Position numbers and translations under genes: made by a program
The notes under the pieces: model-generated
Database searches by the model: none
The model's input: the letters and a program-made list of their open reading frames with translations, nothing else
What the model was told of the DNA's origin: nothing
Source: Candidatus Omnitrophota bacterium
Lineage (GTDB): Bacteria; Omnitrophota; Gorgyraeia; Velamenicoccales; Velamenicoccaceae
Length of the DNA stretch: 29,384 nucleotides
Assembly: GCA_038068755.1 (NCBI GenBank)
Contig: JBBTLH010000095.1
Location: forward strand, 1-29,384
Reading direction: 5' to 3'
Shown here: positions 2,842 through 6,956 of the stretch, one piece after another
Numbering within the stretch: the stretch's first letter is position 1
Layout: each line of letters starts with the position of its first letter

Positions 2842-3624
2842 CTATGCGTCAGTGATGGCCCGCGGCGCCTCTTCGATGGCCTCTTGCTGCGGGTGGCTTA
2901 CTTTAATATTTTCTTTGTTCCTAAAGACTTCTATTTCGCCAAAGACGGCCTTCTGCACTACGATGACCTCTTTTAAACGTATCAACTCAAGCACCGCCAA
3001 AAAAATTGCGATGATCTCCATTTTGCTTTTACCCTGAGAAAATAATTCAGAAAGTTTTATCCGGGGCCTTTCTGCAAACATGTGCAAAAGGCCATGGACT
3101 TTTTCCTCAACGGTAAACTCGTCTTTGATGACTTCGTAGAAGAGCTCCTTTGGGACGTCTTTTAAAGCTTTTGAAAAAGCGTTGATGAGGTCAAAAAGGC
3201 TCGCCTCAAAAAAAGACTCACCCGTATCCTTGTCTTCTAATACCTGGTTGCGTTTAAAAATATCCTGCCGCTGACGTTCTTTTAAGCGTAACACTTGCGC
3301 CGCTTCTTTGAACTGCCTGTATTCCAAGAGCCTCTTGACTAATTCCGCCCTTGGGTCCTTTTCGTCTTCGGGTATCTCATCTAAAATATTTGTTTCCTGA
3401 GGCAAAAGCATCTTTGACTTGATCTGCATAAGTGTCGCGGCCATCACGATAAATTCTCCGGCGATATTTAAGTCCAATAGCCTCATCAACTCCATATACT
3501 GCAGATACTGGTCCAAGATCCCGGCAATCGGTATATCATAGACGTTGAGCTCGTTCTTTTTAATAAGGTATAAGAGCAGATCAAACGGCCCTTCAAATAT
3601 ATCAAGTTTTATCTTGTAGGACAT
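2842..3624 (-). CDS. scpA: Segregation and condensation protein A (kleisin)
   Basis: FEGPFDLLLYLIKKNELNVYDIPI, AGEFIVMAATLMQIKSKMLLP, FLAVLELIR. Confidence 0.96.
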   Translation of the reverse strand: MSYKIKLDIFEGPFDLLLYLIKKNELNVYDIPIAGILDQYLQYMELMRLLDLNIAGEFIVMAATLMQIKSKMLLPQETNILDEIPEDEKDPRAELVKRLLEYRQFKEAAQVLRLKERQRQDIFKRNQVLEDKDTGESFFEASLFDLINAFSKALKDVPKELFYEVIKDEFTVEEKVHGLLHMFAERPRIKLSELFSQGKSKMEIIAIFLAVLELIRLKEVIVVQKAVFGEIEVFRNKENIKVSHPQQEAIEEAPRAITDA

Positions 3625-4607
3625 GGTGTCAACCTTACGGCCTCTCTTACCTCTTTCATCGTGACAGCGGCAACTTTTTCGGCGCGCGCGCGGCCGTCAT
3701 CAAGGATATTCTGGAGTTTCTTTTTATCTTCTAAATAATGGCGCCGTTTTTCCTGAAACGGCCCAAGCAATTTGACTAGTTTTTCCCCTAAGATAGACTT
3801 GCACTCCGTGCAACCCGCCTCGGCCTTCCTGCACCAAGAGGCGGCTTTATCTTTCAACTCCGGCGCGAATATTTCAAAATAGCTGTGTACGTTGCACACC
3901 TCAGGGTGCCCGGGATCTGTCTTTCTTATCCTTTTAGGGTCTGTGAACATCCCCTGAGTCTTCTTTTTGATAAGGTCTTCTGTATCGGAAAGCGCGATAA
4001 AATTATTATAGCTCTTGCTCATCTTGCGGCCGTCTAACCCAAGCAACCTCGGCACGGGGGTCAACAACGGCTTTGGTTCAGGAAATATCTCTTTGTAGAG
4101 CCCGTTGAATTTTCTGACGATCTCGCGCGTCAATTCCAAGTGTGGCAATTGGTCTTCTCCTACGGGCACAACGTGGGCCTTATATAAGCAGATGTCGGCA
4201 GCTTGCAAGACGGGATACCCTAAAAAAGCATAGGTGGAGATATGCCTGTCTTTTAATTCCCGCATCTGCTCCTTGTATGTCGGACACCGCTCCAACCAAC
4301 CCAAAGGTGTCAAGACCGAGAAAGCCATGCAGAGTTCTAAGTGAGCGGGTATTTGTGACTGAATAAAAATGGTGCTTATGTTGGGGTCTACACCGGAGGC
4401 AAGCCAATCCGCGACATTGTCGTAAAGAGAATCTTCTATGATCTTTGAATTCTCATATTCGCTCATGAGCGCGTGCCAATCAGCGACCATGAAGAAACAT
4501 TCGTATTCGCTCTGTAGGCGCACCCAATTGTTCAAAGCTCCTACGAGGTGGCCCAGATGAAGTTTTCCCGTAGGCCGCATGCCGCTGAGTATCCTTTTCT
4601 TAGACAT
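3609..4607 (-). CDS. trpS: Tryptophan--tRNA ligase
   Basis: SGMRPTGKLHLGH (HIGH-like), VPVGEDQLPHLE, KMSKS, YPVLQAADI. Confidence 0.98.
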   Translation of the reverse strand: MSKKRILSGMRPTGKLHLGHLVGALNNWVRLQSEYECFFMVADWHALMSEYENSKIIEDSLYDNVADWLASGVDPNISTIFIQSQIPAHLELCMAFSVLTPLGWLERCPTYKEQMRELKDRHISTYAFLGYPVLQAADICLYKAHVVPVGEDQLPHLELTREIVRKFNGLYKEIFPEPKPLLTPVPRLLGLDGRKMSKSYNNFIALSDTEDLIKKKTQGMFTDPKRIRKTDPGHPEVCNVHSYFEIFAPELKDKAASWCRKAEAGCTECKSILGEKLVKLLGPFQEKRRHYLEDKKKLQNILDDGRARAEKVAAVTMKEVREAVRLTPCPTR

Positions 4608-4622
4608 AGAATAGAGTGAATT

Positions 4623-4643
4623 ACCACCTGCTTTGTCGGTGGT
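4623..4643. other. Small hairpin ACCACC-N9-GGTGGT immediately upstream of the trpS start
   Basis: A perfect 6-bp inverted repeat is visible; function unknown. Confidence 0.35.
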
Positions 4644-4652
4644 TTCTTAAAA

Positions 4653-4841
4653 GAAAAAATTGGTTGGGCGTAGGCGACTTCAAAGGAGAGCATAAAATTC
4701 GGCGGCGCGCATAGCGCAAAAATGCACTGTTTGAGCCGTTACCCTGGTGTCTTATTCAGGGCGAGTTGTGTATTTTTAGCCGAATTTTGTGCGGTGCGTA
4801 AGCACTCCTTTGACTGGAGCCAGAGCCTAAGCAATTTTTTC
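4653..4841. ncRNA. Candidate structured RNA: ~190-nt rod-like imperfect hairpin with two side hairpins (strand uncertain, + slightly favoured)
   Basis: Nested pairings: 4653-4662/4832-4841 (10 bp), 4671-4675/4825-4829, 4680-4688/4805-4813 (9 bp), 4690-4703/4779-4792 (14 bp), 4718-4727/4768-4777 (10 bp), 4742-4746/4757-4761. Mismatches read as G-U on the + strand, and GTGC-GTAA-GCAC (4794-4805) is a GNRA tetraloop hairpin. Confidence 0.6.
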
Positions 4842-4862
4842 AAAGAACAAAATATTTATATT

Positions 4863-6956
4863 TTATTCAAGTTTACGCGCTATCTGCTCTAATTGAAACG
4901 CGTCTATAAAATCGCCTTCCTTGATATCGTTGAAGTTCGCAAGCGAGATACCGCATTCAAAACCTTCGCTCACGTCGCGGACGTCGTCTTTAAATCTCTT
5001 TAAAGCGGCGATCTTGCCCTCATGGACTACCTCGCCGTTCCTGATTAGCGCAACCTCGGCGTTCCTTGCGATCTTGCCTTTCCTGACCATAGAACCGGCG
5101 ACAACCCCCGCCTTGGTCAACTGAAAGACCTTCTTGACCTCAGCCCTGCCCAAAAAGACCTTCTTTATTCTCGGCGACAGCATCCCTTCCAAAGCCGCCT
5201 TCATGTCATTGATAATCTCATAAATAACACGATACATCCTTATATCAATACCTTCTTTGCTTGCCATCTCTCTTGCCTGAATATCGGGCTCAACTTGAAA
5301 ACCGATGATAATAGCGTTAGAGGCTACGGCCAGAACAACATCAGAGATATTTATGATCCCGACACCTTTATGCATCACGACTATCTGGACTTCACTCGTG
5401 CCTATTTTTTGCAAAGAGTCTACAATGGCTTCAAGAGACCCCTGGACGTCGGCTTTTAAAATGATATTCAGCTCTTTAACGCATCCGGACTTGATCTCCT
5501 GATAAAGGTTTTCCAGATGTATATGGGCTCTCTTATGCGCTGGTTCAAGGCGAAGCCTCCTTGATTCCTCTTGTTTGCTATCTACTAATTCGCGCGCCTT
5601 TTTTTCATCGCTCACTACAAAAAACTTATCGCCTGCCTCAGGCACGCCCGAGAGGCCCGTGATCTCAACAGGCATTGAAGGCCCCGCCTCTTCAAGTGTG
5701 TGACGTAAACTATCAGACATCGCCTTGACCCTGCCGCTCTGATAACCGGCAATTACAAAATCACCTAAGCGCAGCATGCCGCTCTGGACCAAGGCCGTAG
5801 CCACAGGCCCTCGCCCTTTGCTGAGCTTGGCTTCAACGATAACACCCGTTGCCTCCCGTTCGTAGACAGTTTTAAGCTCCAGCATTTCCGCTTCAAGCAG
5901 GATCATTTCTAACAGCTTATCAATACCCTCGCCTGTCTTTGCAGAGACGCCAACGGTGATGGTCTTGCCGCCCCAATCCTCTGGGATCAGCCCTAGCTCA
6001 TTGAGCTGCCTTTTGAGTTTATCTATATTGGCCTGCGGTTTATCTATCTTGTTCATTGCCACGATAATAGGCACGCCTGCCGCTTTAGCATGGTCCAAAG
6101 CTTCTATGGTCTGCGGCATGACGCCGTCGTCAGCAGCGATCACCAAAACAACGATATCTGTTACATTGGCGCCCCTGGCGCGCATCGCGGTAAACGCCTC
6201 GTGACCCGGCGTATCCAAGAAAGCTATCTTGCCCCTGGGCAATTTGACTTCATAGGCGCCGATATGCTGGGTGATACCTCCATGCTCGGATTCTGCGACT
6301 TTAGTGCGCCTAATGGCATCCAAAAGCGAAGTCTTACCGTGGTCCACATGCCCCATGAACGTCACAATAGGAGGCCTGGGCTTAAGTAATTTGGCATCAG
6401 CCTTGCTGGTTTTGACGACAACCTCTTCCAAAGAAAGCGGCTTTTTTAATTCAAACCCGTAGTTTTTCAATAGTTCAGAAACAATATCTTCGCTTAAATT
6501 CTGATTGATGTTAGCGAACAATTTGAATTTGATTATAAGGTATTTGATAAGTTCACTGGATTTTATCCCAAGCCGTATTGCCAGGTCCTTGATAGAAATA
6601 GGCACCGCTAATTCAAGAGGCTTATAAACCTTCTCAGGCGCCTGGACAGCCTCGGGCTGTTGTGCCAGGACGGCCTTAGGCAACGCCGCTTCTTCTTTTA
6701 AAATAACGCCCGGGTCTTCCTTTTTTACGGGGACATGTTTCTTTTCTTTCAAAGAAGGTTTAACGGCATCCGGTTTTTTAAAACCGGCTAAAACCGATCC
6801 GGTCCTTGAGGAAGCCCTCGCTTCTAAGAAAAGTTTCACAACGTCCTCATCAAGGCTGGCCATATGGTTCTTGGCCTCAATGTGGCGCTCTTTTAATTTA
6901 GCCAGAAGGTCTTTGCTGGCCAAGCCTAACTCTTTAGCTAACTCATACACTCTCAT
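4863..6956 (-). CDS. infB: Translation initiation factor IF-2
   Basis: MRVYELAKELG N-domain, GHVDHGKT, DTPGHEAF, NKID, KADVQGS, ECGI. Confidence 0.99.
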   Translation of the reverse strand: MRVYELAKELGLASKDLLAKLKERHIEAKNHMASLDEDVVKLFLEARASSRTGSVLAGFKKPDAVKPSLKEKKHVPVKKEDPGVILKEEAALPKAVLAQQPEAVQAPEKVYKPLELAVPISIKDLAIRLGIKSSELIKYLIIKFKLFANINQNLSEDIVSELLKNYGFELKKPLSLEEVVVKTSKADAKLLKPRPPIVTFMGHVDHGKTSLLDAIRRTKVAESEHGGITQHIGAYEVKLPRGKIAFLDTPGHEAFTAMRARGANVTDIVVLVIAADDGVMPQTIEALDHAKAAGVPIIVAMNKIDKPQANIDKLKRQLNELGLIPEDWGGKTITVGVSAKTGEGIDKLLEMILLEAEMLELKTVYEREATGVIVEAKLSKGRGPVATALVQSGMLRLGDFVIAGYQSGRVKAMSDSLRHTLEEAGPSMPVEITGLSGVPEAGDKFFVVSDEKKARELVDSKQEESRRLRLEPAHKRAHIHLENLYQEIKSGCVKELNIILKADVQGSLEAIVDSLQKIGTSEVQIVVMHKGVGIINISDVVLAVASNAIIIGFQVEPDIQAREMASKEGIDIRMYRVIYEIINDMKAALEGMLSPRIKKVFLGRAEVKKVFQLTKAGVVAGSMVRKGKIARNAEVALIRNGEVVHEGKIAALKRFKDDVRDVSEGFECGISLANFNDIKEGDFIDAFQLEQIARKLE

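What the first reader, a model, noticed from the sequence alone, without database searches (positions are those of the whole stretch)
4644..4847. Unassigned ~190-200-nt rod-shaped structured element between infB and trpS
Seen: the only long intergenic gap (255 bp) folds end to end. There are six nested stems (10, 5, 9, 14, 10 and 5 bp; a further TTCTT/AAGAA pair at 4644-4648/4843-4847). Two staggered one-sided bulges each form a mini-hairpin: GCGC-ATA-GCGC (4707-4717) and GTGC-GTAA-GCAC (4794-4805). Stem mismatches at 4693/4789 and 4724/4771 are G-U on the + strand but A-C on the mRNA strand, and the GNRA loop is on +. This favours selection at RNA level on a transcript antisense to the operon, ending in TTTTTT (4835-4840). 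The size matches 6S RNA but a symmetric central bubble is absent. Inference: a divergent 6S, a new ncRNA class, an RNase III processing or attenuation site in the infB-trpS mRNA, or a palindromic MITE. It sits where rbfA normally lies.
Basis: partly seen in the sequence, partly recalled or inferred. Interest (0 to 1): 0.72.

Follow-up and report, generated by a model that had tools for sequence, protein, structure and literature searches.

The report
Decayed gene-less IS200-type mini-transposon copy
The 200-nt "rod" between infB and trpS is one worn copy of a small gene-less mobile DNA element, a miniature of an IS200-type insertion sequence scattered through this groundwater bacterium and its relatives; it is neither 6S RNA nor a dedicated operon regulator, but its conserved, strand-biased rod core remains unexplained.

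Summary
It is not a single-copy RNA gene. The unit (window 4616-4849) has 4 full copies and 7 contig-end fragments in its own ~1 Mb genome, and at least 40 matches in a sister genus. A congener has an empty infB-trpS site, with the trpS ATG 1 nt after the infB stop.

Its ends match a ~640-bp IS200/IS605-family insertion sequence with a Y1 TnpA: TTAA|LE hairpins-tnpA-RE hairpin-TCAC|. In the repeat, the rod replaces tnpA. So it is a PATE-type non-autonomous element. The window copy keeps only the right end (RE) and the rod, so it is probably immobile.

No Rfam family matches, and a canonical 6S RNA lies on another contig.

Three things stay unexplained:
- The rod is kept by compensatory changes (36 of 44 pairs across families).
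- Its core motif recurs in repeats with quite different ends, in this genome and in two other families of the class.
- The better-folding strand is nearly always antisense to the neighbouring genes, and appears to be the non-transposing strand.

No promoter or RNA data were found. Verdict: a new family, and an unusual variant, of a known kind of mobile element. The scan has reported PATE-like elements before on other DNA.

The parts
4616..4849 (-). One copy of the repeat (right end plus rod; transposon orientation is the window's - strand). The left end is missing.
   Evidence: BLAST and alignment of own-genome copies. Element depth is 10-35x that of the flanks, with loose ends at 4615 and 4849, in public groundwater contigs.
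4616..4623 (-). Right-end tail TAATTCAC read on the - strand. It ends in TCAC, the presumed right cleavage motif (TEM).
   Evidence: The same tail follows the right-end hairpin of three tnpA-bearing copies and two relatives. Compare IS608 CR = TCAA (PMC5934647).
4624..4642 (.). Subterminal right-end hairpin CCACCTGC-TTT-GTCGGTGG (family consensus CCACCGAC-TTT-GTCGGTGG), the presumed TnpA binding site.
   Evidence: Present in all copies and in the autonomous IS.
4644..4847 (+). It occupies the place of tnpA in the parent IS.
   Evidence: Folds. Covariation: 88.7% of cells paired against 35-50% in slid controls; 19 pairs changed on both sides against at most 6.
4705..4717 (+). 5'-side mini-hairpin (GCGC...GCGC). 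It covaries within genera g1, g2 and g6, and is replaced by a short bulge in more distant rods.
4718..4777 (+). Conserved core. It consists of helix AAAAATGCAC (4718-4727) / GTGTATTTTT (4768-4777), internal loop TGTTTGAG (4728-4735) / CGAGTT (4762-4767), and a variable apical hairpin.
   Evidence: Invariant columns in A1-A4. The same motif occurs in rod-B, in the G006 family, and in families f8 and f23.
4794..4805 (+). 3'-side mini-hairpin GTGC-GTAA-GCAC (GCGAAGC-type in most other copies).
   Evidence: Covarying closing pair: UA 29 / CG 13; conserved across families.
4843..4849 (-). AAGAACA, the complement of TGTTCTT, which is the last bases of the tnpA 5' leader in the parent IS. In complete copies the left-end hairpins follow here.
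   Evidence: Loose ends behind 4849 read ..ATACCACCRAC.. in other copies.
4850..4862 (.). 13-nt AT-rich spacer (aaatatttatatt) where the left end and its TTAA should be. It is shared with the remnant copy in G002.
   Evidence: Site alignment.
3609..4607 (-). trpS (tRNA-synt_1b), downstream neighbour.
   Evidence: Pfam 8e-65.
4863..6956 (-). infB (IF-2), upstream neighbour.
   Evidence: Pfam IF-2 4.5e-40, GTP_EFTU 7.7e-37.

Best explanation
The rod is one copy of a gene-less mobile element, a PATE-type derivative of an IS200/IS605-family insertion sequence. The parent IS (~640 bp) reads, on its tnpA-sense strand: TTAA | left end (two CCACCRAC hairpins bracketing a GC-rich hairpin) - tnpA (143-aa Y1 HUH transposase) - right-end hairpin - TGATTCAC |. 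In the repeat, tnpA is replaced by a ~190-nt rod.

Inferred from the family's known mechanism: TnpA supplied in trans binds the end hairpins on single-stranded DNA, cuts after TTAA and after TCAC, and pastes the strand 3' of a TTAA without duplicating the target. That TTAA is often the one overlapping a stop codon. This would place copies just behind genes and in their orientation.

Shown: one copy landed between infB and trpS in the ancestor of this genome and G002. Congener G001 keeps the tight, empty junction. The window copy has since lost its left end, so it is most likely an immobile relic.

Any effect on the infB-trpS mRNA (a long hairpin followed by a U-rich run) would be a by-product and is not tested.

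The rod itself is kept by selection on folding. I take it to be a cis-acting structural module of the element, at roughly 50% confidence. Its strand bias does not fit that simple picture.
For: Copy number:
- 4 full copies (91-96% identical) plus 7 contig-end fragments in the own 977-kb, 73%-complete genome.
- 1, at least 2, 3 and at least 40 matches in G001, G002, G007 and G003.
- 15 more copies on metagenome contigs.
- Element depth is 10-35x flank depth in groundwater runs.

Mobility:
- The infB-trpS site is empty in G001 and holds a remnant in G002.
- The C14 copy is absent from both congeners, which have TTAA at the junction.

Parent IS:
- G003:C186 and two metagenome contigs carry the same left and right ends around a Y1_Tnp gene (PF01797 1.3e-39; NF033573 146 bits).
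- A mini-element with ends only also exists.
- The geometry TTAA|-13 nt-hairpin ... hairpin-4 nt-TCAC| parallels IS608 (TTAC, TCAA; insertion 3' of the target, which is retained in the left flank; preference for the +1 base) (PMC5934647).
- PATEs moved in trans by TnpA are known (PMC10055086; PMC3119063).

Non-coding: indels that are not multiples of 3 fall in the loop regions.

Rod constraint.
Against: - No cognate tnpA was found in the own genome or in G001, G002 or G007; only G003 of 22 family genomes has one. These assemblies are 73-90% complete and break at repeats.
- The window copy lacks the left end, and its junctions are not a clean TTAA insertion.
- The absence of a target duplication and the exact cut sites are inferred, not demonstrated.
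- The strand that folds better is the one opposite tnpA, that is, the presumed non-transposing strand.
- The same rod core occurs in repeats with unrelated ends. The rod is therefore not mere filler between IS ends.
Confidence: 0.85

Rival explanations
1. The rod core is a functional strand-specific nucleic acid in its own right. It could be an antisense small RNA or antisense-transcription terminator read from the window's + strand, or a single-stranded DNA signal. Under this reading it hitch-hikes in several kinds of mobile element, and the IS200-type ends are only one vehicle.
For: - The core motif (AAAAAUGCAC / UGUYUGAG - hairpin - CGAGUUG / GUGCAUUUUU, plus a 3' mini-hairpin) is shared by four groups: the IS200-ended element; a TIR-bounded ~190-nt MITE in the same genome (5 copies); the G006 family; and long palindromic repeats in families f8 and f23.
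- 36 of 44 pairs change on both sides across families, against at most 16 in slid controls.
- The + strand is more stable in 31 of 35 copies, by a mean of 10.5 kcal/mol. G-U against A-C counts are 94:17.
- G-U variants are multi-copy, while A-C variants are mostly singletons.
- The end hairpin shows no such bias: 22 G-T against 29 A-C (my hand count from the listing, after discarding its false hits).
- The + strand is antisense to both neighbours in 26/31, 5/5 and 6/7 cases.
- In the orthologous pair G000_C90 / G002_C4, two substitutions keep + strand pairing only through wobble pairs.
Against: - No sigma-70-like promoter on either strand.
- The window's infB-trpS copy was largely deleted in G002.
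- Distribution is patchy and multi-copy, as for selfish DNA: 0 of 150 further genomes of the phylum.
- The counts are of cells, not independent events. About 10 multi-copy G-U variants stand against 1 multi-copy A-C variant.
Confidence: 0.3
2. It is a REPIN-like element moved by one of the RAYT-like (REP-associated Y1) transposases of the genome, not by an IS200 TnpA.
For: The own genome has at least 5 RAYT-like genes (NF047646 at 77-78 bits, cut-off 80; PF01797). REPINs are hairpin-forming, covarying doublets.
Against: The two RAYT-like genes with repeated flanks (C36, C82) are flanked by their own ~28-35-nt REPs, not by rods or CCACCGAC hairpins. The rod element's ends are identical to those of a tnpA-bearing IS. 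G001 has the element but no Y1 hit.
Confidence: 0.07
3. The rod is a guide-RNA scaffold (omega RNA) kept in a PATE for a TnpB or IscB nuclease acting in trans.
For: PATEs often carry omega RNAs (PMC10055086). The rod abuts the right end, as TnpB omega RNAs do.
Against: No TnpB zinc-ribbon family (PF07282) in five element-bearing genomes, while the control genomes gave hits. The parent IS has tnpA only. No Rfam hit, including to the omega/HEARO-type families. The fold-favoured strand points away from the right end.
Confidence: 0.03
4. It is a divergent 6S RNA, or a regulatory (RNase III/attenuator) site evolved for the infB-trpS operon.
For: The size and rod shape, and the position inside an operon.
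Against: A canonical 6S RNA is at G000:C75:16725-16878 (58.9 bits, gathering score 46.4). The rod has no Rfam hit. It is multi-copy. The site is empty in G001 and the rod is deleted in G002.
Confidence: 0.02

Closest known systems
PATEs (palindrome-associated transposable elements): non-autonomous IS200/IS605 derivatives (Haloquadratum, PMC3119063; Geobacillus, PMC10055086)
   Same: No gene. Keeps the subterminal hairpin ends of an IS200/IS605-family IS. Many dispersed copies, far outnumbering the tnpA copies. Presumably mobilised in trans.
   Different: The interior is neither empty nor an omega RNA. It is a ~190-nt covarying rod whose core also occurs in repeats with other ends. The parent is a tnpA-only (IS200-group) element.
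IS608 / IS200 (IS200/IS605 family; Y1 HUH TnpA; single-strand 'peel and paste')
   Same: Y1_Tnp transposase. Subterminal hairpins rather than terminal inverted repeats. A conserved 4-nt word next to the left end (TTAA against TTAC) and a related word ending the right end (TCAC against TCAA). A preferred base after the cut. Like IS200, it has a terminator-like hairpin in the left end, upstream of tnpA.
   Different: The left end has two TnpA-type hairpins plus a GC hairpin. The hairpin stems are perfect palindromes, so the strand cannot be read from them. Guide/target pairing could not be assigned.
REPINs / BIMEs with RAYT transposases
   Same: Hairpin-forming extragenic repeats kept by compensatory change. 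A Y1 HUH enzyme family is involved. RAYT-like genes are present in this genome.
   Different: The rod is not a doublet of the enzyme-binding REP. The RAYT-like genes here have other REPs. The ends match an IS200-type IS.
Structured MITEs with RNA-level side effects (Correia/NEMIS, ERIC, RUP, BOX)
   Same: Intergenic and co-transcribed with neighbours. Long hairpins that could be RNase III or terminator substrates.
   Different: Those have terminal inverted repeats and target duplications from DDE transposases. That applies only to the sister 'rod-B' family here.
6S RNA (RF00013)
   Same: A rod of ~190-200 nt.
   Different: No central bubble, multi-copy, no model match. The real 6S gene is on another contig.

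Membership tests
PATE (non-autonomous IS200/IS605 derivative) | Both ends identical to those of an autonomous IS encoding a Y1 TnpA | tested here: met
   Met for the family: G003:C186, L122 and L123 carry the same left and right ends around tnpA. The window copy itself retains only the right end.
PATE (non-autonomous IS200/IS605 derivative) | No protein-coding capacity | tested here: met
   No conserved ORF. Loop indels are not multiples of three.
PATE (non-autonomous IS200/IS605 derivative) | Dispersed copies with presence/absence polymorphism | tested here: met
PATE (non-autonomous IS200/IS605 derivative) | Conserved target word abutting the left end (TAM) and a related word ending the right end (TEM) | tested here: met
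   TTAA (rarely TTAG, CTAG or TTGA) lies next to the left end in the copies examined and in 5 IS relatives. The right end finishes in ATTCAC. TTAA is present at the empty C14 site in two genomes.
PATE (non-autonomous IS200/IS605 derivative) | Insertion without target-site duplication, with scarless empty sites | tested here: inconclusive
   No duplication was seen. However, the three filled/empty comparisons have diverged flanks and small indels.
PATE (non-autonomous IS200/IS605 derivative) | Cognate TnpA available in the same genome | tested here: not met
   Not found in G000 (73% complete). The only hits are a 30%-identical IS200-like gene with an in-frame TAG and different ends, plus RAYT-like genes.
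PATE (non-autonomous IS200/IS605 derivative) | Excision and integration by TnpA on single-stranded DNA | not testable with these tools
   Needs biochemical or genetic assays.
6S RNA | Match to the 6S covariance model, single-copy gene, central bubble | tested here: not met
   No Rfam hit at 4450-5050 even at E<=10. At least 8 copies. The real 6S is at C75.
TnpB/IscB omega RNA | An associated TnpB or IscB nuclease, and a scaffold transcribed toward the transposon boundary | tested here: not met
   PF07282 absent from 5 genomes. The favoured fold is on the opposite strand.
REPIN/RAYT | The repeat flanks its RAYT gene and consists of inverted REP doublets | tested here: not met
   The two RAYT-like genes with repeated flanks (C36, C82) are flanked by other ~28-35-nt REPs.
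Classical TIR MITE | Terminal inverted repeats plus target-site duplication | tested here: not met
   The ends are TGAATYA-hairpin and hairpin-TTAGGTTAAGAGTTAA, and no duplication is seen. The sister family rod-B does have 23-bp TIRs.

The most novel reading that the evidence does not exclude
The rod core is a helix AAAAAUGCAC/GUGCAUUUUU, an internal loop UGYUUGAG/CGAGUUG with possible tandem G-A pairs, an apical hairpin, and a GNRA- or GCGAAGC-type side hairpin. Under this reading it is a previously undescribed, strand-specific structured module of a class of Omnitrophota-like groundwater bacteria. It is carried by at least three mechanistically different repeat types: an IS200-type PATE, a TIR MITE and long palindromic repeats. 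It is almost always oriented antisense to the host genes. It would act as an antisense RNA or terminator, or as a single-stranded-DNA signal, and would not be mere transposon filler.
Probability: 0.3. Interest if true: 0.7.

Novelty: new variant of a known kind. Interest (0 to 1): 0.4.

Why it matters
For annotation, this removes a false candidate ncRNA or 6S gene. It also explains why these metagenome-assembled genomes (MAGs) break into many contigs: the repeat sits at 7 contig ends in this genome.

For biology, it adds a well-resolved IS200-type IS and PATE family in small-genome, Omnitrophota-like groundwater bacteria, with ends, target word, and empty and filled sites.

It also raises a concrete open question. 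Why is a structured core conserved by covariation, shared between mobile elements with unrelated ends, biased to fold on one strand, and kept antisense to host genes? If that core is a functional RNA or ssDNA signal, it would be an example of a cargo module exchanged among miniature transposons.

Tried and rejected
- Rfam: nothing at gathering score over the whole window. Only a chance CRISPR-DR63 hit (E 7.2) at the permissive threshold.
- tRNA/tmRNA: none.
- RNA evidence: no RNA holder was listed for the window stretch or for the element. This is no evidence either way.
- Promoter and terminator scans: no sigma-70-like promoter. The only terminator-like site in a complete copy is the inner left-end hairpin, on the tnpA-sense strand.
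The corrected pattern was then run on the family genomes and on metagenome contigs.
- I tried to assign the transposing strand from hairpin loops, from G-T/A-C asymmetry in the end hairpin (22 against 29, no bias), and from guide/cleavage-site pairing in relatives. All were inconclusive. The assignment rests on the IS608-like geometry and on the TTAA at an empty site.
- Empty-site comparison for the C69 copy: the flanks are too diverged.
- A 57-codon ORF starting at the conserved ATG (4722) was rejected because of frame-breaking indels among copies.
- GGCGAGTTG next to a REP at C82 was judged chance, since most genomic occurrences are coding.
- Phylum-wide search with model R2: no further hits in 150 genomes. 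Strict filters applied and only 21 candidates were scored per genome.

Full report
**Observation**

The 255-bp gap between trpS (3609-4607, -) and infB (4863-6956, -) folds end to end.
- + strand: -88.9 kcal/mol, z -6.4, with no shuffle as good.
- - strand: -70.1 kcal/mol, z -5.6.

No Rfam family matches on either strand, and there is no tRNA or tmRNA.

**It is a repeat**

The own genome is 977 kb in 102 contigs and 73% complete. It holds four full copies that are 91-96% identical: C95 (the window), C77, C14 and C90. Seven partial copies all lie at contig ends, four being left parts and three right parts. That makes at least eight copies.

Aligning the copies sets the unit at window 4616-4849. 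This is wider than reported, because it includes a small hairpin at 4624-4642.

Public groundwater assemblies show the same picture. Summed contig depth over 4610-4857 is 10-35 times that of the flanks. Loose ends with many different continuations sit exactly at 4615 and 4849.

Relatives in the same family carry it too: G001 has 1 copy, G002 one plus remnants, G007 three, and G003 at least 40 matches. Fifteen more copies lie on metagenome contigs.

**It has moved**
- In congener G001 the infB stop and the trpS start are 1 nt apart, with no element.
- G002 has only a ~64-nt remnant at that site, with the same odd flanking bits as the window.
- The C14 copy is absent from both G001 and G002. Both have TTAA at the junction.

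**What it derives from**

G003:C186 carries the same two ends around a 143-aa ORF on the opposite strand. That ORF is an IS200-type Y1 transposase (PF01797 1.3e-39; NF033573 146 bits). Two metagenome contigs whose TnpA is 92% and 87% identical to it have the same architecture.

Read in the tnpA sense, the IS is:
- TTAA | N-TCTTAACCTAAG
- hairpin [CCACCGAC-TTTA-GTCGGTGG]
- a GC hairpin
- hairpin [CCACCAAC-GAA-GTTGGTGG]
- TACAATGTTCTTTG-ATG...tnpA...TAAGAAG
- hairpin [CCACCGAC-AAA-GTCGGTGG]
- TGATTCAC |

Relatives whose TnpA is 60-62% identical keep the hairpin, the TTAA and the ATTCAC tail. This mirrors IS608 closely. IS608 has CL TTAC and CR TCAA, inserts 3' of the target, retains the target in the left flank, binds hairpins on the top strand, and prefers a particular +1 base (PMC5934647).

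The repeat is this IS with tnpA replaced by the rod, which makes it a PATE-type non-autonomous element (PMC3119063; PMC10055086). A mini form with ends only also exists (G003:C21).

The window's + strand is the strand opposite tnpA. The window copy has the right end (4616-4642) and the rod. After AAGAACA (4843-4849) it runs into 13 nt of AT-rich sequence where the left-end hairpins and TTAA should be. It is probably a dead relic. Several other copies lack the left end as well.

A cognate tnpA was found only in G003 among the 22 family genomes. These assemblies are incomplete and break at repeats.

**The rod is under constraint**
- Over 45 copies, 88.7% of cells pair, against 35-50% when partners are slid. 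Nineteen pairs change on both sides, against at most six.
- The + strand folds better in 31 of 35 copies, by a mean of 10.5 kcal/mol. G-U outnumbers A-C 94:17 on the consensus pairs.
- About as many columns show G-U as show A-C. The G-U variants are shared by 3-14 copies, whereas the A-C variants are mostly singletons. This suggests that G-U-bearing source copies kept propagating.
- The TnpA-binding end hairpin shows no such bias: 22 G-T against 29 A-C (my hand count from the listing, after discarding its false hits).
- In the orthologous pair G000_C90 / G002_C4 the element is 89% identical, the same as the flanking genes. Two substitutions keep pairing only on the + strand.

**Orientation**

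In 26 of 31 copies with co-directional neighbours, the tnpA-sense strand runs with the genes, so the + strand is antisense to them. This fits the known strand-specific insertion of this IS family. It also means that the strand selected to fold is the presumed non-transposing strand. I could not resolve this conflict.

**A wider family**

The rod core consists of:
- helix AAAAAUGCAC/GUGCAUUUUU;
- internal loop UGUYUGAG/CGAGUUG;
- an apical hairpin;
- a 3'-side mini-hairpin.

It recurs with other ends in three places:
- a second family in G006, with at least 17 hits, mostly at contig ends;
- a 190-nt repeat with 23-bp terminal inverted repeats, in five copies in the own genome ('rod-B');
- 260-290-nt palindromic repeats in two other families of the class.

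Across all of these, 36 of 44 pairs change on both sides, against at most 16 in slid controls. That alignment was fitted to a model with only 19 pairs.

The motif strand is again antisense to the neighbours, in 5 of 5 and 6 of 7 cases. A further 150 genomes of the phylum gave no hit. The distribution is patchy, as for mobile DNA.

**Rivals**
- 6S RNA is excluded: the real gene is at C75 with 58.9 bits.
- An omega-RNA scaffold is unlikely: no TnpB was found in five genomes, and the favoured strand is the wrong one.
- RAYT-like genes exist in the genome, but the two with repeated flanks are flanked by their own short REPs.
- A regulator evolved for infB-trpS is excluded by the empty and deleted sites in the congeners.

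**Organism**

NusA is nearest to Omnitrophota clusters in the protein Atlas (a lead only). The G003 record is titled 'uncultured Planctomycetia'. The holders are groundwater metagenomes.

**Verdict**

Shown: the rod is real, covarying and dispersed; it shows insertion polymorphism; and it shares its ends with a Y1-TnpA IS.

Inferred: mobilisation in trans by single-strand 'peel and paste' 3' of TTAA; loss of the left end in the window copy; and a cis-structural role for the rod.

Unexplained: the strand bias, the antisense orientation, and the sharing of the core among repeats with unrelated ends.

The element is a new family and an unusual variant of a known kind. The scan has already reported PATE-like elements in other genomes, one of them with an unexplained conserved hairpin rod.

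Noticed in passing
G000:C7:5650-5840, C52:1460-1650, C62:4310-4500, C81:7140-7330, C90:3450-3640 (loci L143-L147): 'Rod-B': a ~190-nt repeat in 5 copies with 23-bp terminal inverted repeats (TAAGCTTTTGATTATATTATTCA). Its apex carries the same UGUYUGAG-hairpin-CGAGUUG motif as the element studied. All five copies are antisense to their neighbours. The inner hairpin is followed by UUUUUC on the motif strand.
   Followed up: partly
G006 (same family, another genus): C30:110906-111186, C4:64216-64417, C12:31685-31873 and at least 14 further hits, mostly at contig ends: A second rod family with the same apex and side hairpin but different stems and different ends (GGCTA-rich flanks). Its sister species G014 has none.
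   Followed up: partly
G032:C13:9866-9985; G102:C34, C17, C110; G071:C46; G047:C5; G113:C3 (loci L134-L138, L141, L142): Homologous rod cores in two other families of the class. They lie inside 260-290-nt fully palindromic repeats (ends GTGTACAAC...GTTGTACAC-like). Six of seven are antisense to both neighbours.
   Followed up: partly
G000:C94:2893-3633, C98:2454-3671, C36:1948-2907, C4, C82: At least five RAYT-like Y1 transposase genes (NF047646 at 77-78 bits, just under the cut-off of 80). The C82 and C36 genes are flanked by their own ~28-35-nt REP hairpins, which recur on many contigs.
   Followed up: partly
G000:C42:1920-2318: A different IS200-like gene (30% identical to the cognate TnpA) with an in-frame TAG. 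It has CCCCGCAGC-TTGC-TGCGGGG hairpins on both sides. It is probably a decaying copy of another IS200 family.
   Followed up: no
G000:C75:16725-16878: Canonical 6S RNA gene (RF00013, 58.9 bits).
   Followed up: no
G000:C3:15946-16000 and C45:1-55: Two contig ends are exact reverse complements over 55 nt. Both are a left end of the IS family, with its GC hairpin, next to TTAA. On C3 that TTAA overlaps a rubredoxin-like gene's stop codon. These mark further unassembled copies, possibly of the tnpA-bearing IS.
   Followed up: partly
L046 (G003:C186) 440-910, - strand: A 156-aa phage-integrase-family fragment (PF00589, 3.7e-14) lies ~75 nt outside the IS200-type element, next to its right-end boundary.
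   Followed up: no
window 4605-4607 compared with G001:C42:14734-14736: In the congener, trpS starts 1 nt after the infB stop, and no rbfA lies in between. In the window genome the insertion separates the two genes by 255 bp, and the second TrpS residue differs (MSKK against MVKK).
   Followed up: no
L098:1288-1450 and G007:C22 (L012:1501-1774): Two copies carry structure-preserving insertions: an extended 3' mini-hairpin, and a 40-nt insert after the apical GGGCG.
   Followed up: no
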